Below are positions 2,548 to 25,832 of a stretch of 33,382 nt of DNA, piece by piece. The position numbers and the translations under genes are program-made. The DNA is from a virus: the IMG/VR virus record IMGVR_UViG_3300045988_125345, positions 1 through 33,382 of that record; one strand, 5' to 3'. The notes below the pieces were generated by a model, which saw only the letters and a program-made list of their open reading frames with translations, did no database searches and was not told the origin of the DNA. The number at the start of each line of letters is the position of its first letter. Position 1 is the first letter of the stretch.

Positions 2548-3377
2548 CTCCAAGCCTCCTTCCATTCGACCGTCATAGACGGGGTGCCCGACTGCACGCC
2601 CAACGGCGTGAACTGTATCGTCGCGTCGCCGTAAGGGCGGAACCAGTTCTCTTCGGTGAGGAACATGCTCAAATCCGACTGGTTCTGAAACAGGACTCGT
2701 TCATCGTCGAAGTCGAACACCATCGTCTCGTCCGGGTTGATTTGACGGTGGAATTCGACCGCTTCACCCGTCTCGATGCAGTGGATGCGCACGCCTTCCG
2801 ACAATCCGCCTCTGATTTTCACGACAAGATGCGTCGGCGCGAAACCGCTGCCGGTGATGGCGACACGTCCCGGATTGCCCACCTCGCCTTCCGACAACGG
2901 TTCCGTCAGCGGGTCGGTGATGCCCTCGCCGTCGGTAGGCACGCCGACCGTCTGCGAGTGCAGCGGGCCATAAAGATAGGGGGATGGCGCGAGCAAGCCA
3001 ATCTGGAACGCTGCCTTGCCGCGATACCGGTATTCGTCCACCGTCATCGACCTGAGTTCCGCGTCGCACGACAATGCGACTCCCGCGCCCTTCTGCACGG
3101 TGACCGTCACCATGCGTCCGGCCATGCCGCGAAGACGGCGCATCATCTCGTCCGTATCCTCGACCGCGGTGGTCGCATAGTATCCGTTGATGGTGATGGT
3201 GCGCCCATCATAGTATGTTGTGCCGGGAACGGCGTTGCCGTCCGCTCTGGCCCAAGCATCCTGCTCGGTCTTGGCCGACGGCAAGTCGTCGAATCCACTC
3301 ATGGACACCAGCGTGAACTCGTGTCCGGCATCGCCGTAAAGCGTGATATCACCGACGGTGACGGTTATCGTGCTCAA
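2544..3377 (-). CDS. Distal tail protein (Dit-like)
   Basis: 277-aa ORF immediately after the tape measure, with an ATGA overlap. The call rests on synteny. Confidence 0.55.
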   Translation of the reverse strand: MSTITVTVGDITLYGDAGHEFTLVSMSGFDDLPSAKTEQDAWARADGNAVPGTTYYDGRTITINGYYATTAVEDTDEMMRRLRGMAGRMVTVTVQKGAGVALSCDAELRSMTVDEYRYRGKAAFQIGLLAPSPYLYGPLHSQTVGVPTDGEGITDPLTEPLSEGEVGNPGRVAITGSGFAPTHLVVKIRGGLSEGVRIHCIETGEAVEFHRQINPDETMVFDFDDERVLFQNQSDLSMFLTEENWFRPYGDATIQFTPLGVQSGTPSMTVEWKEAWR

Positions 3378-6300
3378 GGTCTGACACTTCCAATCATCTC
3401 GTTATTCAAAGCGTATCCGAATCGGCGGGCCACCAGCTCCACGTCGCTCAACGGGCTTGCCACCACGTTGTCGATGTGGACGCCACCGGTGGGCTGTGCC
3501 GCCGCCACCATACCAGTATAGTCGGCGAGACGCGGCTTCGACACCACGCCGAGGTCGGCCGTGTCAATCTGGTCAAAATCCAAGGAGCCGAGCACGTCAT
3601 CGACCTGACCGCGCACGAACGGGCCCTGAGCGCCGATGGCCTTGCCGAAATCACGCATCAGATGCTCGCCGGACACGCTGGTGTAGCCGGAGCCGGAGAA
3701 CGGGCCGACCTTTGCCGGGGAGAACGGGAAGAAGTCTCGAACCTTCTGCAACGCGCCCTTCACTGCGCTTTTCACGCTTTCGACCGCGCCGAGGATGCCC
3801 TGCTTGAAGCCGTTCATCAACGCCGCACCGGAGTTGATAAGCCACGAGCCGGCACTGGCGAACATGCCGATAATTTGGCCCGGAATGCCTCTGACATAGC
3901 CGAGAATTCTACCGCCCAATCCTGCGAACGGGCGTGCGATGTTCCCGATAATCGCCGGAATGGTGCCCGCAACGGCCATGAAAAGAGACGGGAAGTTCGC
4001 GGCGATGCTGGTCACCACGCTGACGAACGCGCCAATCAGCGTCGGTAGACCGTTGACGATGCCGGAGGCCAGTCCGCCGATGATTGCGGGCAGCTGGTTG
4101 ATGATTGCGACGGCGATGCCCGGCAATGCGGCTGCCAGCGACGTTATCACGCTGGTGATGGCGGACATCAACGCCGGGATAAGCGTCGGAAGCGCGGAGG
4201 CGATGCTCTGTCCGATGGACGGGAGGGCGGCGACCACGGTGGCTCCAAGCGTCTGGATGCCGGAGGCCAAGGACGCGCCGAATCCGCTGATGAATCCGGC
4301 GATGGCACCGCTGCTGTCGCTGATGGCGCTGAACGCGGCCTGCACACCGGCGACCAACGCCTGTCCGAGCGAGGTCATGAGTGACGGAATCTGGCCCGCC
4401 AGCGTGGCGAACAGCGTGCCGAACGCCGCCAGCATCGGCTGGCCGTAGGTGGAGATGAGTCCGGGCAGTTGCGCGAACATGTCGGAGAACGCCTGCGTGA
4501 TTTGCGGCAGTACCGTCATCAACGCGGGCGCGAGCGTCTGTCCGACACTCATAAGAGCGTCGGCGATGCCCGGCAACGCGGCGGTGACGCTCGACACCAT
4601 CTGCGGGAGGGCCGCGGCGAACGCGCTCGCCATGGCTGGCAGTTTCGTCTGGATGCCGGTGAGCGTGTTGTCGAGGCTCTTCTGCCATTCGTCGAACTTG
4701 CCTGTCATCTGGGACGGGTCGAGCTTGAACAGCGTCTGGAAGCCGGCTGTAAGGCCGGTGAATATCGCGCCGGTCACGCCCAACTGGGATGCGATGCCGC
4801 CAATCTTGCCGATTGCCGCGCCGACCCCATTCACGGCCGCGCCGAATCCCTTCAACGCGCCGGAAGACACTTTCAGCGCGGCGGAGCCGATGGTGGCGAA
4901 CGCGGCCTTTCCTGCGGACGCCAGCGGGCTGAACCGTCCGACGATACGCGACACGGCTCCGCCGAACGTGGCAGACAGTCCGGTGCCGAACGTCTTCGCG
5001 GCGTTCGTCAGCGGCGTGAACGGATTCACACCCTTGAACGAGCCGAAAAGCTTTTCGGGAAGACCTTGGAGCGGAATGGACAGCGTGGACGCCACTTCGG
5101 AGCCGAACGACGCGAGCACGCCCTTGACGTGGGACAGGCCGTTGCCCACCGTGGAGCCGAGCTGGGACATGGCGGCGCTGATGCCGGTCGTATCCAGCAT
5201 CTCGGCGAACACAGCCTTGAACTCGGACGCCTTGCCCTTCGCGCTCGCGACCATGGAGAGCACGCCGGATTCGACGTCGGCGCGCAGGACCTCAATCTTC
5301 GTCTTGGCGTTGGAGACGATTTCGGCGAGGATGTCCTTGACGGGTGCCCACTGCTGTGCCGTGTTCGCGGCGTAGTTGGACAATCCGGTCTTCAGGTTGC
5401 CGAACGTCTGCATGATGCTGTCCGACGCGGACACTGCGGAGCCGACCAAGGGGAGGAACGCGTTCGGAATCTTGAGACCGGTAAGCTCCTTGAACTCACG
5501 TCCCACCTGCACGAGCTTGTCGCGGTAGACGTCGGCGTCCTGTCCTGCGGCGTCCAACGAACGGTAGATGTCCGAGTCCACGACGATGGTGTCGGCGGCG
5601 GCGCGGATGTCACGGAACGCCTGAACGAGGGACGGGGCCTTCTTCTTCGCGGCGGCGTCCATCTCCTTGCCGAGGGTTTCGAACGCCTTGAGGAAGGCTT
5701 CGGGGAGCGCGTCGGCGTCGGAACCCATCGCGTTCAATCCGCTTTGCAGGAGCTTCACATTGTCGGACACGTGGCCCACGCCGTTCAGCAGGTTCGTCGC
5801 GGCCTTCTGGACGATATCGAAGCCAGCCGCGCCCTTCTCGCCGAAGCCGAACGCATACGTACCCAAATCCTCGAACGCCACGTTGAACTTGCCGAGCGCG
5901 TTCTGCACCCTCGTCGATTCCGCCAGCGTCTTGGACAGCGCGCCCGCCATTGCCGCGAGCTTGTCGATGACGGAGGCGGATGCGGATATGGCGGCTCCGA
6001 ACGTGCCGGTGAAGCTGGAACCGAGCTTGATAAGCGTGTTCTTCACGCCGACAAGCGCGCGGCCGATGAACGGGATGCGGGATGCGAACCGGTCGTTCGT
6101 GGCGACCATGAGGCTGAAGACGGTGGTGCCGATGACGCCCACCGTGTTCAGCATGTCGCCCAAGGAGGATAGGAGGTTGGCGTTCTGCGAGTTCAGACTG
6201 ATGAGATTCGTCAATGGGGCGAGGAACTGTTCGACCTGCTTCGGGTCGAACGCCTTGTTGACGGCCGGGGCCAGCTGGTTGATGAATGTGGCGGCCAGCG

Positions 6301-10822: not shown

Positions 10823-11107
10823 CTACCACCTTCTCGTCGCTGTTCGCGTTCGGCGTGTCGCCGGACTTGCTATGTGGTCCGACTTGGCGCGGTTGCACTG
10901 CATGTGCGCCGGGACGAGATTGTCCATCCTGTCGCTGCCACCGGCCGCGCGCGGTATCACATGGTCCGCGGTGAACGCCAGCGGATGCGCCGTGTTGCGG
11001 CCCCAGTAGAACGGTTCGCCGCAATAATAGCAGGGCGCTCCCGTACGCTTGGTGCGTTCACGCAGGATGGTGCGGTTGCGGTGGTAGAGGCCCGTATCCT
11101 TTCCCAT
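10823..11107 (-). CDS. HNH endonuclease (terminase-associated)
   Basis: MGKDTGLYHRN...CYYCGEPF...FTADHVIPRAAGGSDRMDNLVPAHMQCNRAKSD is an HNH motif. The start ATG 11107 overlaps the TerL stop (ATGA). The longer track ORF from 11230 would overlap TerL. Confidence 0.85.
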   Translation of the reverse strand: MGKDTGLYHRNRTILRERTKRTGAPCYYCGEPFYWGRNTAHPLAFTADHVIPRAAGGSDRMDNLVPAHMQCNRAKSDHIASPATRRTRTATRRW

Positions 11108-12555
11108 CAGGCAATCACCTCCCTGACCTTGCGCTCCTTCGGACGGTTGACGCCGCGATACCACGCGGCGATGGACACGCCCTTCAGACCGGCCGTTGTC
11201 TCGGTCTTGCGTATCGGAGCGAACTTCCACTGGTCATCCGAACCGGACTTGAGCTTCTGCGCGTTCTGCACTTCCGCGGTCAGCTGCGGGTTGTTCGTAT
11301 GCTTGAAGCGTCCCTCGTCCAGCAGGTCGAGGAATCCCTGCTGGGATGCGAGGAATTCGGTGCCAGTCAGCTGCACGACGTTCAGGCCGCGCGGAAGCAT
11401 GTCCCTTATCGGATTGTTCAAGCCGCCAGCATCCAGAATGAGCGTGGTCTTGCGTGGGCGCGTCTTCAGCTCGTCCACGACCCACTGCCATGATTCGGTG
11501 GTGGGACGTTCGTCCACGATTTCGCCGATGATGTACGCCCACTTGTCGTAATGCTTCGAGCCGACCGTCACCTCTTCGGTGCTTGCTGCCACGGACAGGG
11601 CAAGCGTGCTGGTGGCCGGGTCGAAGGTGAGCGCGTAGACAAGCGTGTCGCGGTCATGCTGGAGGTCGGAGTAGGCGCTGTCCCACAGGTCCGTCGGGAT
11701 TGCGGGCGGAATGCTGTCCGCCCACCACAGGCCGAGGTCTTGGATGCGGAAGTCTATGAGGCCGTCCGCGCCGCCCTGCTTGGCTATCGCCACGTCGGTG
11801 AGGAACGCCTCGCGTGGAATAACGTCCGGGTAGAGCGGGTTGGTGAGCGCCCACAGCTGTTCGTCTTCGATGTCCGCCGTCTCGTCGTCGATGCCGTAGC
11901 GCACTGCATACGACATATCGTCGTTCTCCGCGTTGTCGAGGAACACGTTGAACGTGTCGCCGATGGACGAGGGGAGGAACGGGGTGCCAGTGTAGATTAT
12001 CATCGCCATGCGGCGCGTCTTCAACGTCTTCGAAATCATCGCCTCGTATTCGGAGCGGAGTTCCTGAGCCTCGTCGAAGATGACCAAATCGAACGTGCCG
12101 CCCATGCCCGCGGAAGCGCTCTTGCGGGAGCGGAACCGGACGAACGCGCCGTTGCGCAACTGTAGGCGCTCGCGGCCCATGGTGGTGCTGAAGTGAGTAA
12201 CCTCGGCCTTCAGCTCCGGGTTCGCGTCGATGGCGTCCTTCAAATCCTCCATGATTTTGTTGGCCGCAATCTGCTCGTGCGCTGTGACGAGCACGTTCAG
12301 GCCGAGCACGAACAGGTAGTAGAGGATTGGTGCGGTGAGGATTTTCGTCTTGCCGTTCTGACGCGGCATGTTCAGCGCCACGCGCTTGTACTTCCAAGTG
12401 CCGTCCTTCTTGCGCTGGAAGGCGTTGTTGAGGAATTCGACCTGAAACGGGAGGATTGCGTTCCCGCGGCCCCAGTTCACGTATTCCGCGGCCATGATTG
12501 CCACGTCGGACTGCGGTCGGACCGCAGCCCTCCAGTTTGGATTCTTTACCAGCAT
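11107..12555 (-). CDS. Terminase large subunit
   Basis: 482 aa. It has a Walker A-like NMPRQNGKT, a Walker B LVIFDEAQE, and a C-terminal nuclease half. Confidence 0.9.
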   Translation of the reverse strand: MLVKNPNWRAAVRPQSDVAIMAAEYVNWGRGNAILPFQVEFLNNAFQRKKDGTWKYKRVALNMPRQNGKTKILTAPILYYLFVLGLNVLVTAHEQIAANKIMEDLKDAIDANPELKAEVTHFSTTMGRERLQLRNGAFVRFRSRKSASAGMGGTFDLVIFDEAQELRSEYEAMISKTLKTRRMAMIIYTGTPFLPSSIGDTFNVFLDNAENDDMSYAVRYGIDDETADIEDEQLWALTNPLYPDVIPREAFLTDVAIAKQGGADGLIDFRIQDLGLWWADSIPPAIPTDLWDSAYSDLQHDRDTLVYALTFDPATSTLALSVAASTEEVTVGSKHYDKWAYIIGEIVDERPTTESWQWVVDELKTRPRKTTLILDAGGLNNPIRDMLPRGLNVVQLTGTEFLASQQGFLDLLDEGRFKHTNNPQLTAEVQNAQKLKSGSDDQWKFAPIRKTETTAGLKGVSIAAWYRGVNRPKERKVREVIA

Positions 12556-16787: not shown

Positions 16788-17032
16788 CCATGCTCCTTTC
16801 CTAGGGTTCGTCCGATGATGGCGCAGGCCAGCGCGGCACTGCGCGTGGTTCTTATTCTAGTCCGATGGCCGAACATGACGCGGCCGTCATCGGTGATGGT
16901 GGCGGCGGCGAGCGCTCGCCCGCATCGCGGGCATTCGTAGACGCATGACAGCCAACGTCCGAGGGGGCGGATTGTCACGTCCGCCCCATGTCGCGCGCCC
17001 GTGTCGCACAGGCGTCCTATCGGATTCGTCAA
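16736..17032 (-). CDS. Possible small Cys-containing protein (doubtful)
   Basis: A TTG start overlaps the primase stop (TTGA). The first ~55 codons have high GC3 and contain CVYECPRCGR. However, the 3' 52 nt overlap the well-supported next gene and contain rare AGA/ATA codons. Confidence 0.25.
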   Translation of the reverse strand: MTNPIGRLCDTGARHGADVTIRPLGRWLSCVYECPRCGRALAAATITDDGRVMFGHRTRIRTTRSAALACAIIGRTLGKEHGCANHSTQSHTEPSPSC

Positions 17033-19290
17033 GCCGTTTCCTTAACGCTCTTCCAGATGCCTTCGATTTCGGCGTCTCCGAGTCCGCTGATGTGGCCGCG
17101 GAGCACGAGTTCGTCGTGGATGCTGGCCTCGTTGTCCTCGTGGTTGTGGAGGCGTCCCCACGCCCACCGGTAGAGCGTGTCGTTGCGGCGTCCTTCGGGC
17201 ACCGGCGTGAGGTCGGGCCGTCCGTTGCGCGGCGCGCCCTCCTTGACGGCGGTGGTCGGCTTCGGCATTGGTTCGACGCCGTATCCGTGGTTGACGAGCC
17301 ATTCGAGCAGTTCGACCGGGGCCTCCTGCACTTCGGTCTCGTCGCCCACCAGACGGTAGAAGCCGACGCCTTCGATGTTGGAACCGGCTCCGAGCACGTA
17401 GCCGCGTCCGTCCACCTTCACGTCGACTGGGATGCCGTCGGCGTGGTTGGTGTTCTTAAGCTTGCCAGTCCAGCCTTCCGGGAGCCGGTAGTAGGCGTGG
17501 ATGCCGCCGTGCGTCGGCGTGTGAACCATGAGTGTCGGGGTGAGCATGGGGCGGAGGATGTTGTATCCGTGGCGGCTGTGCTCGTCCTTCGGCGCGTCCA
17601 TGTCGAGGATGATGTTGCCGGGTTGCGGGATGACGGCGTACACGTCGCCTTGGCCGATTTCCACGACATCCTCCTGCTTGCCGTTCTTCCAGTTGCGGAC
17701 GGCCTTCGGGTTGTCCGGGTCGGTCGGCTCCTTGTGGAGCTTGAAGCCTTCGGGGGCCTTGACGTTCACGATTTCGCCGTCTTCGGTGAGGCGCTTTTCC
17801 ATGTCGGTCTGGATTTCAGGCACGGGCAGGTCTTCGAGCAGGGGGAGGCGGCTTTCGTTCATCTCCTTCTCGTAGCGTTCGCGGTAGGGGGCGAAGCGGT
17901 CTTCGTCGATGACCACGCGCACGGAGCACACCTTGCCGTCGATGCGCTTGCTCCGCAGTCCGACGCCGAGCATCTTGTACGTGTCGCCGCTGGTATGGCC
18001 GAGATACGGGCATGCGCGGGTGTCGGCGAAGCCGTTCTCGCAGATTTCGTTGACAATCCACATGGCGCGCTCGTCCAGCTCCTGCTCGGAGTCGTTGAAG
18101 CTGATGTCGCGGCGGATGTCATCGTCCAACGGCTTGTCGGCCCAGAGCATCGCGCTCGCGAGCATGAACGGGGTCATGCCGTACTTGTCGATGAAGTCGG
18201 CCAATGGTTGCATCTGCTCAGGGGTCTTGCGGCCCGCGAACATGACGGGTACGAGGCGGCGCATGTTGGCGTCGCCGTTGCTTGTGGCGAGCGGGTGGTT
18301 GCTTGCGATGACGAGCGTGGCCTGCGAGCGCACGTTGACGCTGTTGCGGCCGACGCTTCGCGCGTGGATGGTGTCGCCGGTGGCGATGCGCTTGATGATG
18401 CCCATGTCCTTGTCGGTGAGCATGTCGCCTTCCTCGTCGTACGCCCAATAGCGTCCGTCGAGCTTCAGCGCCTCGTTGCCGCTTTCGAACACGCTCGTCG
18501 AGTTGAGGGCCTTGACGCTGATGCCGCTGGCCTTGTCCGGGTAGGCGTCGCCCAAGCGTCCGAGGAGGAAGCTCTTGCCGTCGCCGCCGTGCCCGTAGAA
18601 CACGTAGAAGAGATGCTTGTACGGTTCGAGGAAGGGGGTTGCGAACATGCGGAGGAGGTTTTCGCGGCTCGCGTCATCGTCGGCGGCGAGCTTGGCGATG
18701 AACTTGTTGGCCTGTTCGACGATTTTCTTGGTCTTCTTGGAGTCGTACAGCCATAGGCTATCGTCCACGTACAGGTACGCGCCGTTATCGTCGGCTTTCC
18801 CGACCACGACGGTGCGCTTGCCTTGCGGATGGAAGGCGGTGTTGCCGAACCGCATTCCACGGACGAGGCGGGGGAGTTTGAGCATTTCGGCCCGGAACAT
18901 CGGTTCGAGGTTGCGGACGGCGTGGATGCCGGTAGGGAAGTCGAACTCCTCGGACAGGCTGGAGATTGGATGCCACGTGTTCGGCATGTCGCCGCCGAGC
19001 CAGTTGGTGTCGCGGGCGTACATCGTGTCGCCAGCTTCGTCGAGGCGCAGGTCGCCGTTTCTGAGCGACCAGAACGCGTCGTAGTACGCGTCCGCCCAGC
19101 GGGGCTTGCCGGTTTTGTCCATGACAGGCATGGCGACGGTCTGGAGCCGGGCGTCGGTGAACGTGTACTCGTCGTTCGGTCCGGCCAAGGTGAGGCCGTT
19201 GACCTCGCGGGCCAGTCCGTTCGGGATGTTCCGGTACGGCCGGATGTCGATGGCCGGCGGGTCTTGCGGCTTGCGGAAAGTGTGACACAT
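17029..19290 (-). CDS. Replicative helicase-primase fusion: N-terminal D5/P4-type SF3 NTPase, C-terminal Prim-Pol plus a PriCT-like domain
   Basis: The start ATG 19290 lies 6 nt after AAGGAG. The Walker A is YVFYGHGGDGKSFLL, followed by ...KRIATGDTIHARS...LVIASNHP. Later come NIILDMDAP...HTPTHGGIHAYYRLP...VDVKVDGRGYVLGAGS (Prim-Pol) and PEGRRNDTLYRWAWGRL (PriCT-like). Confidence 0.85.
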   Translation of the reverse strand: MCHTFRKPQDPPAIDIRPYRNIPNGLAREVNGLTLAGPNDEYTFTDARLQTVAMPVMDKTGKPRWADAYYDAFWSLRNGDLRLDEAGDTMYARDTNWLGGDMPNTWHPISSLSEEFDFPTGIHAVRNLEPMFRAEMLKLPRLVRGMRFGNTAFHPQGKRTVVVGKADDNGAYLYVDDSLWLYDSKKTKKIVEQANKFIAKLAADDDASRENLLRMFATPFLEPYKHLFYVFYGHGGDGKSFLLGRLGDAYPDKASGISVKALNSTSVFESGNEALKLDGRYWAYDEEGDMLTDKDMGIIKRIATGDTIHARSVGRNSVNVRSQATLVIASNHPLATSNGDANMRRLVPVMFAGRKTPEQMQPLADFIDKYGMTPFMLASAMLWADKPLDDDIRRDISFNDSEQELDERAMWIVNEICENGFADTRACPYLGHTSGDTYKMLGVGLRSKRIDGKVCSVRVVIDEDRFAPYRERYEKEMNESRLPLLEDLPVPEIQTDMEKRLTEDGEIVNVKAPEGFKLHKEPTDPDNPKAVRNWKNGKQEDVVEIGQGDVYAVIPQPGNIILDMDAPKDEHSRHGYNILRPMLTPTLMVHTPTHGGIHAYYRLPEGWTGKLKNTNHADGIPVDVKVDGRGYVLGAGSNIEGVGFYRLVGDETEVQEAPVELLEWLVNHGYGVEPMPKPTTAVKEGAPRNGRPDLTPVPEGRRNDTLYRWAWGRLHNHEDNEASIHDELVLRGHISGLGDAEIEGIWKSVKETA

Positions 19291-19334
19291 GATTGTCTCC
19301 TTCGTGGTAGAGTTGTTTTCGTTGGCAATCCCAA

Positions 19335-19445
19335 CCCTAGCACACTCGCCAAGAGTTCGCAACTACGGCATTTCGGAAATCGTTTGGTTTCCAGTCTCCT
19401 TGTGGGCCGTAGGAAGCGTAGGCGAGTGTTCTAGGGTTTTTTTTT
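19335..19445 (+). other. Nested long stem-loop followed by a T9 run, lying in the leader of the primase operon. On the plus strand it looks like an intrinsic terminator.
   Basis: ccctagcacactcgcc (19335-19350) pairs with ggcgagtgttctaggg (19421-19436), 15 of 16. An inner stem ctacggc/gccgtag is also present. Then ttttttttt follows at 19437-19445. Confidence 0.4.
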
Positions 19446-19461
19446 GCCCTTTTTTATGTGA

Positions 19462-19498
19462 ACACGACTTGACAACCGTGTGGCGGATGGTGTATACG
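19462..19498 (+). promoter_or_regulatory. Rightward promoter P0 (TTGACA-N17/18-TATACG), facing the ORF-free region
   Basis: acacgacTTGACAaccgtgtggcggatggtgTATACg. The core is homologous to P3 (ttgacaaccgt...atggt(g)tatac). Confidence 0.4.
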
Positions 19499-19524
19499 CG
19501 CGCGCGCACGCGCGCCTCACGCGC

Positions 19525-19553
19525 TTTATATAGATAAAGGACACAACAACAAC
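19525..19553 (-). promoter_or_regulatory. Candidate leftward promoter for the primase/structural operon (TTGTTG-N16-TATAAA)
   Basis: The minus strand reads ttgttgtgtcctttatctatataaag. The -35 hexamer lies inside the (TTG)n tract. This is the only sigma70-like match I see upstream of 19290. Confidence 0.25.
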
Positions 19554-19561
19554 AACAACAA
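19544..19561. repeat. (CAA)6 trinucleotide microsatellite
   Basis: caacaacaacaacaacaa, read directly from the sequence. Confidence 0.95.
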
Positions 19562-19666
19562 CCCTTATATACCTACACCTACACACTACACTTATTGGGC
19601 TTTGAGAGGGGTCAGCCTCATGCGCACGCGTGATACACCTCGACACGCCAAAAGTCAAGGACTTGC

Positions 19667-19788
19667 TGTGACTATTGGCCCTCGAATTTATCGAAATCGA
19701 CTGTGATTTTCGTCACATTTTCACATAGCTCGCAACTCATTCACAGTTCCATCACAGAATCTATTGCCCCTAACTTGAGTTGTCCACA
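19667..19788. promoter_or_regulatory. Cluster of DnaA-box-like TCACA/TGTGA motifs including one perfect TTGTCCACA; candidate replication origin
   Basis: This is a locally AT-rich stretch. TGTGA occurs at 19667 and 19702. TCACA occurs at 19713, 19721, 19741 and 19752. TTGTCCACA lies at 19780-19788. Confidence 0.4.
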
Positions 19789-20391
19789 GGCTCAGCGTTG
19801 GAAATCCGCCAAAACCAAGACGCCCTCGCATGACTTGGCCGCGCTACTCGAATAGCAACGGCCTGACCGCCGACCAACATGGTCGCCGATTCCTCGAAAC
19901 CGTTGGAACGACGCCATTCCCAGATGGTCGTGGCGCGGGCTGGCCGAATCTTCACAATTGCCCGTTGACCGCAGATTTTCGGCGTCGCACGGCCTTCGCT
20001 GTGTCACGCATGGACTGCGACACAGCCATGGCCGCATGCGGAGCAATTTCCTGACGTCGGGAAAATGGTCGCGCGGGCCTTCTGGAGACGGCCGCATCCA
20101 CCATGGCCGCAACTGCCGGAGGCGTGGAATCGAATAAAGGCGTCTCTGAGGGCCTTTTAGCGCTGGCATGTAAAAGTATTAGGGTTCGGCGTGAAAGCCC
20201 GTCTAAGGCCCCAAAGAATCGCTCTCAGATGGCACCATTGCCCATTCGCCCTCGTCGGCGCAATTGGCAAGGCGTGCGGTGAGGCTCCGGCGTGTCCTTT
20301 TTCCGGCACCCCCCCCTGCGTCGGGGTGTCTCTCCCTGTCTGTTATTGGGAATCGTTCTCGTTTTGTCGACGTGTCGGCGGCGTCCATGGG

Positions 20392-20612
20392 TTAACCGCG
20401 TTAACGTCTCAATCGGGTTAACGTATCAACCAAGTTCATGCGTTAACCAAGTTCATGCATTAACCGTGTTGATGTGTTAACCGTGTTGATGTGTTAACCG
20501 TGTTCATCTGTTAACCGTGTTCATGCATTAACCGTGTTCATCTGTCAACCACGTTCATGCATTAACCATGTTCATGCGTTAACTGGGTTCACTCCTTAAC
20601 CGGGTTCACGTC
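20392..20612. repeat. Iteron array: 11 tandem 17-bp units in exact register (20426-20612) plus 3 degenerate TTAAC half-units upstream
   Basis: Units start at 20426, 20443, 20460 ... 20596. The consensus is TTAACCGTGTTCATGCR. Two adjacent units are identical (ttaaccgtgttgatgtg). Confidence 0.9.
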
Positions 20613-20625
20613 GACGTCGCGTTAT

Positions 20626-20640
20626 TGAGAACAGTTCTCA
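20626..20640. promoter_or_regulatory. Perfect 15-bp palindrome TGAGAACAGTTCTCA abutting promoter P1 (operator candidate)
   Basis: 7-1-7 dyad located 12 bp upstream of the P1 -35 hexamer. Confidence 0.5.
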
Positions 20641-20681
20641 CGACACGCCGACTTGACTCACGGCACCAAATGCGGTATATT
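20641..20681 (+). promoter_or_regulatory. Early promoter P1 (CGACACGCC element, TTGACT-N17-TATATT)
   Basis: cgacacgccgacTTGACTcacggcaccaaatgcggTATATT, followed by the AAGGAGG RBS and ATG 20708. Confidence 0.65.
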
Positions 20682-20707
20682 AAAACCATCAACCAAGGAG
20701 GTACGAA

Positions 20708-20890
20708 ATGCACAAGGCACTTAATGGCAAGGGATATATCAAGGACGGAGAAGGGGTGTTCGTCACCACGTCGGGCGAGGTGTACGCCTACCGCGACGGG
20801 GAGCTGACGCCATCCACCGCAACCGAAGACCCGAAGGCGTACGTCGAACTGGCGCGCGGCATGTTCGCCCGAACGACACGCCGCACTTGA
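20708..20890 (+). CDS. Early hypothetical protein (60 aa)
   Basis: AAGGAGG lies 7 nt upstream. This is the first gene after P1. Confidence 0.6.
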   Translation: MHKALNGKGYIKDGEGVFVTTSGEVYAYRDGELTPSTATEDPKAYVELARGMFARTTRRT

Positions 20891-20915
20891 CATCCAACGC
20901 CAAGTCAGGTATATT
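20874..20915 (+). promoter_or_regulatory. Early promoter P2 (CGACACGCC element, TTGACA-N17-TATATT)
   Basis: cgacacgccgcacTTGACAtccaacgccaagtcaggTATATT. The stop codon of the preceding gene lies inside the -35 hexamer. Confidence 0.65.
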
Positions 20916-21315: not shown

Positions 21316-21318
21316 GCG

Positions 21319-21360
21319 CGACACGCCGACATTGACAACCGTATACCACATGGTATACCA
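21319..21360 (+). promoter_or_regulatory. Early promoter P3 (CGACACGCC element, TTGACA-N16-TATACC)
   Basis: cgacacgccgacaTTGACAaccgtataccacatggTATACCa, followed by the AAGGAG RBS and ATG 21389. Confidence 0.5.
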
Positions 21361-21659: not shown

Positions 21660-21698
21660 TAGACAACATAAGCCATCTGTTATTAAGAAGTGGTTGAA

Positions 21699-23309
21699 AT
21701 GGCTGACAGAATTGCAATCCTAGGCGGGGAGCCGTATGGCGAGTGGATTAAGCGCGACAGCCAAGCGCAAAGGCTGTACCGCGAGTATTGCGCCAAGTGG
21801 CCGGACGGTAACGCCGAGTGCTTCGTGGCCGGAGAGGACTTCTACGTCCGCCTCAACAACGGGAAAATGCGTTACGTCGACAGCGCCGACGACTTCGATG
21901 ATGAGGCCGCGTGGTGCGCGCAGTGTGGCGTGCCGGTTGACGTCGACAGTGGCGACTACTGCATCTGCGACGCCGATGATTGCGACGCGGTTCCCTGCAA
22001 GTACTGCGGGGGCGACATGCTGGGAGACTACTATTGCCCGCGTCACCGTGGATACGACGTGCTGAAGTACGTCAAGGAGCCGGAATACGTCTACCCCTAC
22101 GCGTTCGGGGACGGTGACCAATTCACGTTCGGCGTCGAGATTGAAATTGAGTCCGAACTGTCCGAAGAGTTTGCCGAAGGCGTCAAGGAATCCGACTTGG
22201 TTGCCGGCTGGGACAGTGACCAGTCACTCGACGCGGGCGGCATTGAGTTGCAGAGCAACATCCTTGACATGTCCAAACTGTCCGCGTTGCGTGAGTTGGT
22301 TGAGGACATCCCGGAATGCGGGGAGAACGCGGGCGGCCACATCCACGTTGCCCGCACGCCAAACCAGTGCGCTAGCCGCTGGTACTGGGCGCTACGCGGA
22401 CTGGATATCGCGCAATGCCAGCGCCTCAACATGCGCCACATGGGTGATGATTATTGGTGCACCCTCACCCATGGCGACTACACGGGCAAGCACGTGGCCG
22501 TCAACGACGAACACGCGGACACTATCGAACTTCGTACGTTCGACTGCTGGTATGCGGGTACCGCGGGCAAACTCGTCCCGGCCGTCAAGTGGATTCGTGC
22601 CATGTGGCGCTTCTTCGAGAAGTACCCCCGCGGCACCATTGAGGCCGCCGCCATCGAACAGTACTCTTCGTGCGTGGCCGACAACGTGACCGACACGCCC
22701 CGCCGCACGCTCGAAGAACGGCTTGCGGACGCCCACCGCGCCGCCGCCGCACGCAAGGCGGAGGAGGAGTGCGAGCGCGAGCGCCGCGCCGACGAAAACC
22801 GCCGCCGCGTCGAGAAGAACGTGAGGGAGTCGCGCCGCGCGCGTAAGAGCCATGGCGACTCAACCGCGGCCATCATTGCATGGCGCGAGCACGGGAAACG
22901 CCGCGAGCGCGGCCGCGAGCGCGTCGAGGAAAACCTCGCCAGCGGCTACTGCGTCTACGCGTTCCCGTCCCGCAATCTCAAGCCGTTGCACATCTACTTG
23001 CGCATGGTTGACGCGAGACTCGAACGCGGCGGCACGTTCCGCAGTCTGAGCAACTTCTTCATCTACCACCCATACGACGGGGCGACGGTGTGGGACGGTT
23101 ACGCATACTTGTACAGACCTGAAGGCGATACCGTCGCGCGGGTGGTCAACAATATCATCCGCAGCCGTATCGCACGCGCGTCCCACGGCACGCCGACGAG
23201 GGAATCACTGGAGCGCACAGCGTTGCGCATCTACAAGCACATCGGACGTCCCGAATTGAACGAACGCTACGCGCAGATTCGCAAGAATCTCGCGCGCGGC
23301 AACAACTGA
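21699..23309 (+). CDS. Amidoligase_2-type (glutamine-synthetase-like COOH-NH2 ligase) multidomain protein
   Basis: The motifs FTFGVEIEIESE ... SLDAGGIELQSNIL ... ENAGGHIHVA are present. There is a Cys-rich N-terminal region (CAQCG..CICD..CKYCG..CPRH), a very charged R/E helix (aa ~345-400) and an extra C-terminal domain. The start is ATG 21699 or GTG 21690. Confidence 0.7.
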   Translation: MADRIAILGGEPYGEWIKRDSQAQRLYREYCAKWPDGNAECFVAGEDFYVRLNNGKMRYVDSADDFDDEAAWCAQCGVPVDVDSGDYCICDADDCDAVPCKYCGGDMLGDYYCPRHRGYDVLKYVKEPEYVYPYAFGDGDQFTFGVEIEIESELSEEFAEGVKESDLVAGWDSDQSLDAGGIELQSNILDMSKLSALRELVEDIPECGENAGGHIHVARTPNQCASRWYWALRGLDIAQCQRLNMRHMGDDYWCTLTHGDYTGKHVAVNDEHADTIELRTFDCWYAGTAGKLVPAVKWIRAMWRFFEKYPRGTIEAAAIEQYSSCVADNVTDTPRRTLEERLADAHRAAAARKAEEECERERRADENRRRVEKNVRESRRARKSHGDSTAAIIAWREHGKRRERGRERVEENLASGYCVYAFPSRNLKPLHIYLRMVDARLERGGTFRSLSNFFIYHPYDGATVWDGYAYLYRPEGDTVARVVNNIIRSRIARASHGTPTRESLERTALRIYKHIGRPELNERYAQIRKNLARGNN

Positions 23310-23315
23310 GACTAT

Positions 23316-23338
23316 CGGGGGCGGGAACGTCCCGCCCC
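23316..23338 (+). terminator. 10-bp all-GC hairpin between the amidoligase and amidotransferase genes (attenuator or processing-site candidate)
   Basis: gggggcggga-acg-tcccgccccc, followed by accgttt. There is no long U tract. Confidence 0.4.
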
Positions 23339-23364
23339 CACCGTTTAGAAAAGAGGTAAAAACA

Positions 23365-23865
23365 ATGTGTGTAATCGTTACGGCCGTGCCCGGCTCCATG
23401 CCTGAGCCTGAGGACATCCTAGCCATGAGTGACGCGAACCCGGACGGGGGCGGCGTGAGCTGGTGGGATGGGGAGCGCCTGAGGGTGTTCAAGAACGTTG
23501 ACACCCTGAAGGTGGTGGGCTTCATCTACAGCCATTGGGATAGTCTCAAGCGCGCCCCGTGTCTCATTCATTTCCGTCTCGCCACGCATGGCGCGGTGTC
23601 GCCTGAGAACTGCCACCCGTTCCACACTGAGCGCGGCTATATCGCACACAACGGTATCGCCCACGACTTCGAGGACGGCCCGTATGAGTGCGACACTAAG
23701 AACATGGTGCGCGCGTGGATTGACAGCGGATACGATAACGACACGTTCGCCGGTCAGGGTCTCGTGGCCCTCATCACCCCGCACGGTTGCCTTAAGTGGC
23801 TGGAGGGCAAGCCGATTGAATACGGGCAAGGTGTATGGGTCTCCAATATGTTTTGGGATATCTGA
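23365..23865 (+). CDS. Class II (Ntn) glutamine amidotransferase-like thiol enzyme
   Basis: The protein begins Met-Cys (MCVIV), and carries HFRLATHGAVSPENCHPF and IAHNGIA motifs. It is 166 aa long and has an AGAGG RBS. Confidence 0.7.
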   Translation: MCVIVTAVPGSMPEPEDILAMSDANPDGGGVSWWDGERLRVFKNVDTLKVVGFIYSHWDSLKRAPCLIHFRLATHGAVSPENCHPFHTERGYIAHNGIAHDFEDGPYECDTKNMVRAWIDSGYDNDTFAGQGLVALITPHGCLKWLEGKPIEYGQGVWVSNMFWDI

Positions 23866-25359: not shown

Positions 25360-25557
25360 GTGAACGCGCCAATCCACTACAGCGACGATGACATGATTGA
25401 CGTGCTCACCACATGCCCGAACATAGACCAAGCCGCGCGCGCGCTCAACGTGTCGCGCGGCTGGTTGTTCCCGCACGCGAAACGTTTGGAGCGTGAAGGC
25501 AGAATCATTCCGAAATCAATCATGCCCGCATATTTCAAGCCAAAGGAAAACAAATGA
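25360..25557 (+). CDS. Small helix-turn-helix DNA-binding protein
   Basis: GTG start, 65 aa. IDQAARALNVSRGWLFPHAKRL is an HTH. Confidence 0.5.
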   Translation: MNAPIHYSDDDMIDVLTTCPNIDQAARALNVSRGWLFPHAKRLEREGRIIPKSIMPAYFKPKENK

Positions 25558-25832
25558 CGGAATTTCTAGACACCCCCCCCGCAGAAGTCAGGGTAAGCAC
25601 CATGTTCAACACGATGCTCAAACAGAATCTAGGCAGATGGGCGGAATACACTTCATACAAGAAACGCAACGTCGCGAACGCCACCGCATACCACATCCGC
25701 AAGCACCTCTTGGCGTGGACGGAGCCGGGCGTGGACTACGCCACAGCGACACGCCGCAAGCCGGACGGCACATACGCCGTATGGGTCAGCGCGGTACGCA
25801 TCAAGGAGGACGACAATGACGAGATTGAATAA
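25554..25832 (+). CDS. Hypothetical protein (92 aa)
   Basis: ORF with an ATGA overlap with the upstream gene. Confidence 0.55.
   Translation: MTEFLDTPPAEVRVSTMFNTMLKQNLGRWAEYTSYKKRNVANATAYHIRKHLLAWTEPGVDYATATRRKPDGTYAVWVSAVRIKEDDNDEIE

What the first reader, a model, noticed from the sequence alone, without database searches (positions are those of the whole stretch)
20392..20612. Exact 17-bp x 11 iteron array immediately upstream of the first early promoter
**Seen**
- TTAAC motifs recur at 20426, 20443, 20460 ... 20596 with an invariant 17-bp period. The consensus is TTAACCGTGTTCATGCR.
- Three degenerate TTAAC half-units precede the array (20392, 20401, 20418).
- Each unit contains two related half-sites (GTTAAC and GTTCAT/GTTGAT) about 8.5 bp apart.
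- The array ends 14 bp before a perfect palindrome (20626-20640) and promoter P1.

**Inference**
- There are no spacers, so this is not a CRISPR array.
- Arrays like this are typical of iteron-type replication origins, of ParR/centromere-like sites, or of cooperative repressor or anti-repressor binding platforms.
- Nothing in the genome is an obvious Rep or ParR. Candidates are the small early proteins, the 65-aa HTH protein (25360-25557) or the helicase-primase.
Basis: seen in the sequence. Interest (0 to 1): 0.65.

Follow-up and report, generated by a model that had tools for sequence, protein, structure and literature searches.

The report
Tandem operator-like array before early promoter
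A gut Bifidobacterium phage carries 13 head-to-tail copies of a 17-bp protein-binding-type motif next to its first early promoter and near the end of its DNA; the whole phage group shares this array in very different copy numbers, so it is probably a tunable regulatory platform rather than an essential origin or packaging site.

Summary
Thirteen in-register 17-bp units lie at 20391-20611, with a decayed 14th at 20374. They are bracketed by two direct copies of GTTATTGrGAAyNGTTCTC and abut promoter P1.

Each unit is a semi-palindrome, RTTAAC-N3-GTTCAY plus a 2-nt linker. Across 150 distinct units from about 35 related Bifidobacterium phages the two hexamers are conserved, the N3 and the linker vary freely, and spacing is almost always a multiple of 17. 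That is the signature of a phased protein-binding array.

- The array always sits just upstream of the first early promoter. In one lineage it lies between two divergent promoters.
- It starts about 108 bp from the inferred physical left end (20283/20284).
- Copy number runs from 0 (one contig) to at least 27, so it is accessory and not essential.
- A better origin-like region lies at 19390-19603, beside the P4-family helicase-primase gene.
- The same motif grammar forms a two-unit element between a TetR gene and an MMPL gene in three actinomycete genomes.

The binding protein is unidentified; the 65-aa HTH protein is only a generic candidate. My best reading is a cooperative regulator platform for early transcription (about 0.4). 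Rivals are a replication origin or enhancer, an end or packaging function, and a host-factor sponge.

The parts
20284..20284 (.). Inferred physical left end of the packaged genome (cut between 20283 and 20284, GGTGAG|GCTCCGGCG)
   Evidence: Three independent IMG/VR contigs start at this homologous base. L009 starts there after an Illumina adapter remnant, TTCCGATCT; L020 and L025 start there directly. An HNH endonuclease next to TerL fits cos-type packaging. This is inferred, not measured.
20342..20360 (+). Left copy of the flanking direct repeat GTTATTGGGAATCGTTCTC, holding an imperfect palindrome GGGAATCGTTCTC
   Evidence: the repeat finder family D4: 84% identical to 20621-20639, 279 bp apart. 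It is present next to the end-proximal poly-C block in relatives.
20374..20390 (+). Degenerate unit 0 of the array (GTCGGCGGCGTCCATGG)
   Evidence: In 17-bp register and scores 9.6 bits on the weight matrix. Decayed GC-rich first units are seen in several relatives.
20391..20611 (+). Array of 13 head-to-tail 17-bp units, each RTTAAC-N3-GTTCAY plus a 2-nt linker; 43% G+C against 59% for the genome
   Evidence: The identical array is in the independent assembly L055.
20621..20640 (+). Right copy of the flanking repeat, with the perfect 15-bp palindrome TGAGAACAGTTCTCA (20626-20640); operator-like, directly upstream of the promoter element
   Evidence: It sits at a fixed position (-31 from the end of the matched promoter element) in nearly all of the 25 tabulated relatives. 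The L038-type arrangement lacks it.
20640..20652 (+). Conserved 13-bp element ACGACACGCCGAC abutting the -35 hexamer; shared by the phage's early promoters
   Evidence: The 18-mer ACGACACGCCGACTTGAC retrieved 34 related contigs.
20653..20681 (+). Promoter P1: TTGACT, 17-nt spacer, TATATT
   Evidence: Promoter scan, 10 of 12 matches.
20708..20890 (+). First early gene (60 aa, no known family). It is absent from L038-type relatives that still have an array, so it is unlikely to be the binder
25360..25557 (+). 65-aa helix-turn-helix protein: a candidate binder only
   Evidence: Weak Pfam HTH_29 hit. AlphaFold2 model with three helices, pLDDT 72. Foldseek gives only generic winged-HTH matches with E above 0.3. 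It is 80-89% conserved in relatives, including the array-less L018.
17029..19293 (-). Helicase-primase (P4-family SF3 helicase plus Prim-Pol), first gene of the leftward operon: a candidate binder if the array serves replication

Best explanation
The array is a cis-acting platform of about 13 contiguous operator-type protein-binding sites.

**Anatomy (shown)**
- Each site is a 15-bp semi-palindrome, RTTAAC-N3-GTTCAY.
- Sites are spaced exactly 17 bp centre to centre. At about 10.5 bp per helical turn that is roughly 1.6 turns, so bound proteins would spiral around the helix.
- The array is conserved across the phage group and fixed in position next to the first early promoter.
- The array can be lost: one relative has none.

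**Mechanism (inferred)**
- A sequence-specific DNA-binding protein, most simply an HTH dimer per unit or monomers per hexamer, loads cooperatively along the array.
- This forms a nucleoprotein filament between the two palindromic operators.
- The filament modulates transcription from P1, and from the divergent leftward promoter (called PL in this report) where present. It could shut early genes off, time them, or boost them.
- The number of units sets the strength or sharpness of the response.

**Confidence**
The identity of the binder is unknown; it could be the phage 65-aa HTH protein, another early protein, or a host regulator. Confidence that this is a protein-binding array is about 0.85. 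Confidence that its main role is control of early transcription is about 0.4.
For: 1. Binding-site signature. In 150 distinct units from about 25 phages, positions 1-6 and 10-15 carry 0.9-1.9 bits each, while positions 7-9 and 16-17 carry 0.2-0.6 bits.
2. Fixed phasing. Spacings between successive GTTCAY are 17 (141 cases), 34 (30), 51 (12) and 68 (2), against 7 near-array spacings (16-63 bp) that are not multiples of 17, although the spacer bases are saturated with substitutions.
3. Link to promoters.
   - In every relative the array sits immediately upstream of the first early promoter.
   - In BP677-type phages a 104-aa leftward gene with its own promoter is inserted between the genome end and the array. 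The array then fills the gap between two divergent promoters, each with its own palindrome.
   - In L038-type phages the array directly precedes the promoter of the DUF8033 gene, with no palindrome and no gp1.
4. Single locus. No site above 16 bits lies elsewhere in the genome, and tandem units occur in no other phage group among 2.9 million viral contigs.
5. Same grammar in a regulatory setting. Two tandem RTTAAC-N3-GTTCAY units at 17-bp spacing, hexamers conserved and N3 variable, lie between a divergent TetR gene and an MMPL transporter gene in three actinomycete genomes.
6. Functional precedent. Mycobacteriophage D29 Gp36 binds direct repeats upstream of early and late genes and represses them (PMC12266134).
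Against: - No binder has been identified.
  - The 65-aa HTH protein has only a generic fold match.
  - The 92-aa neighbour is not an RHH protein and matches no DNA-binding fold.
  - No early gene's presence or absence tracks the array.
- The distance from the last unit to the -35 hexamer varies by 14-30 bp between lineages, so there is no strict stereospecific link to RNA polymerase.
- The palindrome-to-palindrome distance is not helically phased (my own arithmetic on the positions).
- Semi-palindromic direct repeats are also typical of replication iterons (PMC7145576).
- The phage has a P4-family helicase-primase 1.1 kb away.
- The array is the least stable 200-bp stretch of the genome.
- Nothing here measures transcription.
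Confidence: 0.4

Rival explanations
1. The array is a replication origin, or a cis-acting replication enhancer like the crr region of P4. The units are iterons bound by the origin-binding part of the P4-family helicase-primase. The helicase loads there, helped by transcription from P1.
For: - Tandem semi-palindromic direct repeats are the classic iteron form (PMC7145576).
- The array lies in the largest non-coding region, 1.1 kb from the helicase-primase gene.
- It is the least stable 200-bp window of the genome.
- From memory, unverified here: P4 alpha protein binds octamer iterons TGTTCACC, which resemble the GTGTTCAC/T core of many units.
Against: - L018 has no array yet keeps a helicase-primase 90% identical, together with the other replication genes.
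- Copy number ranges from 2 to at least 27.
- The immediate flanks are GC-rich, with no adjacent AT-rich unwinding element.
- A better origin-like architecture lies at 19390-19603, right beside the helicase-primase start and conserved in all relatives. It reads GTAGG x2-3, hairpin plus poly-T, (CG)n, (TA)n or simple repeat, then CCTAC x2-3, and it contains the least stable 80-bp window of the genome.
Confidence: 0.22
2. The array serves a packaging or genome-end function. It could be a cosB-like set of terminase-binding sites, or an end-organising array like the short repeat arrays next to the T7 terminal repeats. Either would act in cos cleavage, packaging initiation or termination, or DNA entry.
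For: - The array begins about 108 bp inside the inferred physical left end.
- An HNH endonuclease next to TerL indicates cos packaging.
- From memory: lambda cosB occupies a similar position relative to cosN, and T7 has arrays of short repeats between its terminal repeat and the first early promoter.
Against: - In BP677-type phages about 450 bp (gene, terminator, promoter) is inserted between the end and the array. The array stays with the promoter, not with the end.
- L018 lacks the array.
- Copy number is highly variable.
- The terminase genes are about 8 kb away on the other strand.
- Other candidate terminase sites exist on the other side of the cut: the ATGGYCGC repeats at 19870-20111 and the highly conserved block at 20140-20283.
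Confidence: 0.1
3. The array is a sponge or sensor for a host regulator. It would be a multi-copy set of operators for a host TetR-like (or other HTH) protein. It would either titrate that protein away from host genes or couple phage early transcription to the host's physiological state.
For: - The unit grammar is identical to a TetR-MMPL intergenic tandem element in three actinomycetes.
- No convincing phage-encoded binder was found.
- The hexamers are conserved across phages of different Bifidobacterium species.
- Copy-number plasticity suits a dosage device.
Against: - The scan of one genome per species found no tandem pair of units in any Bifidobacterium genome. Single sites were not searched.
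- No Bifidobacterium orthologue of the TetR was looked for.
- The actinomycete match could be convergence on a common HTH half-site.
Confidence: 0.1
4. The array is a plasmid-type partition centromere (parC/ParR, omega or TubR-like) for a plasmid-prophage state.
For: The array of short phased repeats just upstream of an operon promoter resembles parC and omega-site arrays. This resemblance is drawn from memory.
Against: - No ParA, ParM or TubZ NTPase, RHH adaptor, integrase or repressor module was found in any profile search.
- Relatives are plaque-forming sewage isolates.
- No such array occurs in Bifidobacterium genomes.
Confidence: 0.02
5. The array is a neutral minisatellite: a slippage-prone repeat with no sequence-specific function.
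For: - It expands by 17-, 34- and 51-bp blocks.
- It can be lost through recombination between the flanking direct repeats.
Against: - Twelve constrained and five free positions are maintained in 150 distinct units across diverged phages, with almost no indels.
- The array is retained in all but one of the roughly 35 related contigs that span its position.
- It is identical in two independent samples of the same strain.
Confidence: 0.06

Closest known systems
Tandem element between a divergent TetR gene and an MMPL gene in Actinomadura and an actinomycete MAG
   Same: It uses the same unit grammar: RTTAAC-N3-GTTCAY, hexamers conserved, N3 variable, a 2-nt linker and a 17-bp period. It lies in a promoter region.
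   Different: It has only two units. A TetR gene lies next to it; whether that TetR binds it was not tested. It belongs to a cellular transporter locus. The phage encodes no TetR-family protein and has 13 units (0 to at least 27 in relatives).
Replication iterons (lambda ori, P4 ori/crr, RepA_N plasmids, P1 incA)
   Same: They are tandem semi-palindromic direct repeats of about 17-22 bp in a non-coding region near a replication gene. The phage's helicase domain is of the P4 family.
   Different: There is no adjacent AT-rich unwinding element. The period is 17 bp rather than about two helical turns. Copy number is unconstrained and one relative has none. The binder has not been shown.
Direct-repeat binding by small MerR/Xis-like phage and actinobacterial regulators (D29 Gp36; BldC and lambda Xis from memory)
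   Same: A small HTH protein assembles cooperatively on direct repeats upstream of genes in an actinobacteriophage and represses them (Gp36, PMC12266134).
   Different: Gp36 sites are two to four GC-rich repeats about 20 bp apart. The 65-aa protein here gave no specific MerR or Xis fold match.
Partition centromeres parC/ParR, omega heptad arrays, tubC (from memory)
   Same: They are long contiguous arrays of short phased repeats abutting an operon promoter, coated by a small DNA-binding protein.
   Different: This phage has no partition NTPase and no RHH adaptor, and nothing points to a plasmid-prophage lifestyle.
Lambda cosB R sites and the T7 short repeat arrays beside the terminal repeats (from memory)
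   Same: They are repeats within a few hundred bp of the genome end, between the end and the first genes.
   Different: The array stays with the promoter when 450 bp is inserted between it and the end. It is dispensable in L018 and is not next to the terminase genes.
Phage Mu operator region O1-O3 (from memory)
   Same: It is a cluster of about nine repressor sites between divergent promoters near the genome's left end.
   Different: Mu's sites are in mixed orientation and irregularly spaced, and they belong to a lysogeny switch. No repressor or integrase was found here.

Membership tests
Iteron-type replication origin | Several direct repeats of about 17-22 bp in one orientation | tested here: met
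   13 units with a 17-bp period.
Iteron-type replication origin | AT-rich unwinding element adjacent to the iterons | tested here: not met
   The flanks are GC-rich (GTCGACGTGTCGGCGG on the left, CACGTCGACGTCGCG on the right). The least stable 80-bp window is about 800 bp away at 19524-19603. The array itself is of low stability.
Iteron-type replication origin | Required in cis and conserved in all members | tested here: not met
   L018 has no array but keeps the replication genes. Copy number runs from 2 to at least 27.
Iteron-type replication origin | Bound by a cognate initiator and supports replication | not testable with these tools
   A P4-family helicase-primase is present. Binding is unknown.
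Operator array for a transcription regulator | Semi-palindromic sites with conserved half-sites and a free central spacer | tested here: met
   Information content per position over 150 units.
Operator array for a transcription regulator | Located at or between promoters in all members | tested here: met
   The array lies between divergent promoters in BP677-type phages.
Operator array for a transcription regulator | An identified cognate regulator that changes transcription | not testable with these tools
   The only candidate is a generic 65-aa HTH protein.
Partition centromere (parC/ParR-like) | Linked genes for a partition NTPase and a centromere-binding adaptor | tested here: not met
   The Pfam, PHROGs and NCBIfam scans run on the early genes and most other predicted genes found none.
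cos-phage terminase-binding site (cosB-like) | Fixed short distance from the cos cut | tested here: not met
   The distance is about 108 bp in the window type but about 560 bp in the BP677 type, because of an inserted gene.
cos-phage terminase-binding site (cosB-like) | Bound by the terminase small subunit and needed for packaging | not testable with these tools
   No TerS was recognised. L018 lacks the array.
CRISPR array | Repeats separated by unique spacers; cas genes or a leader | tested here: not met
   The units are contiguous, with no spacers and no cas genes.

The most novel reading that the evidence does not exclude
The array could be a copy-number-tunable titration device built from operators of a TetR-like grammar. 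It would bind either a host regulator, acting as a sponge or sensor, or a minimal phage HTH protein that can only bind by polymerising along many phased half-sites. Placed near the physical left end of the DNA, it would set the timing of early transcription. It would evolve quickly by gaining and losing 17-, 34- or 51-bp blocks.
Probability: 0.15. Interest if true: 0.7.

Novelty: new variant of a known kind. Interest (0 to 1): 0.5.

Why it matters
- These phages are a very common, almost unstudied group of human-gut Bifidobacterium viruses. One small early protein alone has 325 clusters in public metagenomes, many on 31-34 kb contigs. Every gene in the isolate records is annotated 'hypothetical'.
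- The array is the most conspicuous cis-element of their control region and gives a concrete handle on how their early programme is regulated.
- It offers a natural series of copy numbers from 0 to at least 27 for testing dosage effects.
- It provides a bait for fishing out the unknown regulator, whether phage or host.
- If the binder is a host TetR-like protein, the array would be an example of a lytic phage carrying a multi-copy host operator.

Tried and rejected
- **RNA:** an Rfam scan of 19200-20800 found nothing. The array lies between outward-facing promoters, so an RNA role was dropped.
- **92-aa protein (25554-25832):** I suspected a ribbon-helix-helix fold from the sequence. The AlphaFold2 model is alpha-beta-alpha-beta-beta with no fold match, so this was rejected.
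- **65-aa HTH protein:**
  - I tested for a MerR/Xis/BldC-like fold and found only generic winged-HTH matches.
  - Comparison with the TetR N-terminal domain was not significant.
  - PDB sequence searches found nothing.
- **gp1:** absent from L038-type phages that still have an array.
- **gp2 (DUF8033):** no PDB or family information.
- **Phyletic partner:** no gene is lost together with the array in L018.
- **LexA box:** the palindrome is GAAC-N1-GTTC and the units are AAC-N3-GTTC, not the N4 spacing of Gram-positive SOS boxes (knowledge-based). Rejected.
- **DNA looping between the two palindromes:** the separations are not helically phased (from the positions).
- **Record ends of the BP677 isolates as true termini:** the ends overlap by about 55 bp, which looks like an assembler artefact. 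I relied on the three contig starts instead.
- **Right-end contigs:** a further scan found none.
- **P4 iteron sequence:** it could not be verified in the held literature.
- **Acidimicrobiales hit (L048):** a 4 x 17-bp duplication at a kinase/response-regulator gene junction, judged to be chance.

Full report
**What the window is.** The 33.4-kb window is essentially a whole genome of a siphovirus of Bifidobacterium.
- Its nearest GenBank relatives are sewage isolates on B. adolescentis and B. pseudocatenulatum: BA720P3/BA746P1 and BP677P1-8/BP742P1, at 74-81% identity over the region. All of their genes are annotated as hypothetical.
- Rightward early genes start at 20708. They include ERF, an SSB-like protein, a 65-aa HTH protein, VRR-NUC, a YqaJ-like protein, SNF2, dCTP deaminase and MazG.
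- Leftward genes start with a helicase-primase at 17029-19293, which has a P4-family SF3 helicase domain plus Prim-Pol. They continue through head, TerL plus HNH, tail and lysis genes.
- No integrase, repressor or partition gene was found.
- The finding lies in the 1.4-kb non-coding region between the two divergent gene blocks.

**The observation.** It holds.
- TRF reports a 17-bp period over 20434-20608, score 189, with no indels.
- In register there are 13 units at 20391-20611 and a decayed one at 20374.
- Twelve of the genome's 16 TTAAC and eight of its nine GTTAAC are here.
- With a weight matrix from relatives, every site above 16 bits is in the array. Shuffled genomes give 0.1 such sites.
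- An independent assembly from another study is 99.986% identical over 14 kb and has the same 13 units, so the array is not an assembly artefact.
The three 'half-units' are ordinary in-register units whose second hexamer is GTTAAC.
- The palindrome at 20626-20640 and P1 at 20653-20681 are as described.

**Anatomy.**
- The array is bracketed by direct copies of GTTATTGrGAAyNGTTCTC at 20342-20360 and 20621-20639. Each holds a GAGAAC-N-GTTCTC-type palindrome.
- The right copy abuts a 13-bp element, ACGACACGCCGAC, that precedes the -35 hexamer of all the early promoters.
- The array is 43% G+C against a 59% genome. It is the least stable 200-bp stretch, but its immediate flanks are GC-rich.

**Comparative evidence.**
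- Using the promoter element and an end-side motif as probes, I fetched about 35 related IMG/VR contigs in addition to the isolates. Almost all carry a 17-bp array at the same place.
- Over 150 distinct units, positions 1-6 (R T Y R A C) and 10-15 (G T T C A Y) are conserved. Positions 7-9 and 16-17 are nearly free.
- Spacings between successive GTTCAY are 17, 34, 51 or 68 bp in 185 cases, with 7 near-array spacings (16-63 bp) that are not multiples of 17.
- Substitution-saturated spacers with almost no indels mean that both the hexamers and their phasing are under selection. That is the signature of a phased protein-binding array.
- A unit can be read as a 15-bp semi-palindrome (ATKAAC-N3-GTTMAT) or as direct GTTMAY hexamers 9 and 8 bp apart. 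Because GTTAAC is self-complementary, the data cannot separate the two readings.

**Copy number.**
- It ranges very widely: 2 (L016), 3 (L030), 5-15 in most, about 20 (L019), and at least 27 in L014, where a 51-bp three-unit block is amplified and the contig ends inside it.
- Blocks of 17, 34 and 51 bp have recently duplicated. BP742P1 has the whole palindrome-plus-array unit duplicated around an assembly gap.
- One 30.8-kb contig, L018, has no array at all. A single hybrid palindrome is fused to P1, as expected from recombination between the flanking direct repeats. The shared flank is only about 19 bp, too short to be collapsed by the usual assembler k-mers, which is my inference.
- L018 keeps every early gene that array-bearing relatives all keep, including a helicase-primase 90% identical to the window's.
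- The array is therefore beneficial enough to be retained almost everywhere, but it is not essential.

**Where it sits.**
- Three contigs begin at the same homologous base, window 20284. One of them begins there after an Illumina adapter remnant. With the HNH-TerL pair, this points to a cos-type physical end.
- The array therefore starts about 108 bp inside the left end of the virion DNA, just before three strong early promoters.
- In BP677-type phages a cassette (terminator, 104-aa leftward gene, promoter PL, palindrome) lies between the end and the array. The array stays attached to the promoters and now fills the space between two divergent promoters.
- In L038-type phages the array directly precedes the promoter of the DUF8033 gene, without a palindrome or gp1.
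- The constant partner of the array is thus the first early promoter. It is not the genome end, the palindrome or gp1.

**Origin versus regulation.**
- A more conventional origin-like region lies at 19390-19603, directly upstream of the helicase-primase gene. It reads GTAGG repeats, a hairpin with poly-T, (CG)9, an AT-rich or simple-repeat core that is the least stable 80-bp window of the genome, then inverted CCTAC repeats. It is conserved in architecture in all relatives examined.
- Together with L018 and the unconstrained copy number, this lowers the origin reading. It does not exclude a crr-like accessory role.
- Packaging is disfavoured by the BP677 insertion and by L018. Better candidates for terminase sites lie on the other side of the cut.

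**Who binds.** This remains unknown.
- The 65-aa protein folds as a three-helix HTH (pLDDT 72) with only generic winged-HTH neighbours.
- The 92-aa protein is not an RHH protein.
- No profile library names any small early protein.

**A lead from elsewhere.**
- A scan of one genome per prokaryotic species for two tandem units found none in Bifidobacterium.
- It did find three actinomycete loci where two RTTAAC-N3-GTTCAY units, 17 bp apart with variable N3, lie between a divergent TetR (TetR_N plus TetR_C_33) gene and an MMPL transporter gene.
- This shows that exactly this grammar occurs in the regulatory region between a TetR gene and a transporter gene. It suggests a dimeric HTH per unit, and it keeps open a host-regulator reading.
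- Among 2.9 million viral contigs, tandem units occur only in this phage group.

**Verdict.** This is a real, lineage-wide, selected array of protein-binding sites.
- Most likely it is a cooperative regulator platform for the first early promoter or promoters (about 0.4).
- The main rival is an origin or replication enhancer (about 0.22).
- Smaller possibilities are an end or packaging function and a host-factor sponge.
- It is a new variant of a known kind, the tandem operator or iteron array, and of moderate interest.

Noticed in passing
window 20283/20284; conserved block 20140-20283; poly-C hairpin about 20303-20331: Three related contigs start at the same base, one of them after an adapter remnant, which implies a physical (cos) end here. 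The 140 bp to the left of the cut is more conserved (86-88%) than the coding DNA. Just to the right of the cut, a C-run and G-run hairpin varies in a compensatory way between phages.
   Followed up: partly
window 19390-19603: An origin-like architecture lies directly upstream of the helicase-primase gene: GTAGG x2, an 18-bp inverted repeat plus T9, (CG)9, an AT-rich and (ACA)6 core that is the least stable 80 bp of the genome, then CCTAC x2-3. The same layout is seen in all relatives checked.
   Followed up: partly
window 19870-20111: Six copies of a (C)ATGGYCGC motif, two of them as an exact 11-mer CCATGGCCGCA 75 bp apart, lie on the right-end side of the inferred cos cut. They may be terminase-binding sites.
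   Followed up: no
window 20640-20681, 20874-20915, about 21316-21360; also a possible rightward promoter near 19465-19500: The early promoters share a conserved element, CGACACGCCGAC, immediately upstream of the -35 TTGAC. Each of the first three small genes has its own such promoter. A similar ACGACTTGACA...TATAC sequence faces into the non-coding region at 19465.
   Followed up: partly
L005 (OP172700) 100-540; also L004, L007, L010, L012, L030, L039-L041: BP677-type phages carry an extra leftward 104-aa gene of unknown family between the genome end and the array, with its own promoter, palindrome and terminator. L036 keeps only the terminator and a remnant.
   Followed up: partly
L002 (OP172705) 3270-3745: The BP742P1 record has the whole palindrome-plus-array unit (about 155 bp) tandemly duplicated around a run of N. 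Its true array structure is unresolved.
   Followed up: no
L039 555-700, L012 31-120, start of L032: Some arrays have units whose spacer and second hexamer are replaced by G or C homopolymer runs (ATTAGGGGGGGGGTTCATTC, ATTAACCGCCCCCCATTC). These could be real variants or sequencing artefacts.
   Followed up: no
window 17029-19293 (-): The helicase-primase has an unusual domain order. The P4-type helicase (about aa 230-380) comes before the Prim-Pol domain (about 530-660) and a PriCT-like C-terminus. About 200 N-terminal residues and a linker of about 140 aa have no assignment.
   Followed up: partly
L046 1465-1500, L049 1391-1440, L051 340-380: Two Actinomadura genomes and an actinomycete MAG have a tandem pair of RTTAAC-N3-GTTCAY units between a divergent TetR (TetR_C_33) gene and an MMPL transporter gene. 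It looks like an undescribed operator.
   Followed up: partly
window 21690-23865: A 536-aa protein, which looked to me from its sequence like an amidoligase (no profile hit), and a class-II glutamine-amidotransferase-like protein form a pair. The pair is missing together from L008, L018, L019 and L026.
   Followed up: no
window 10823-11230 (-): An HNH endonuclease gene overlaps the end of the TerL-like gene, as in HK97-type cos packaging systems.
   Followed up: no
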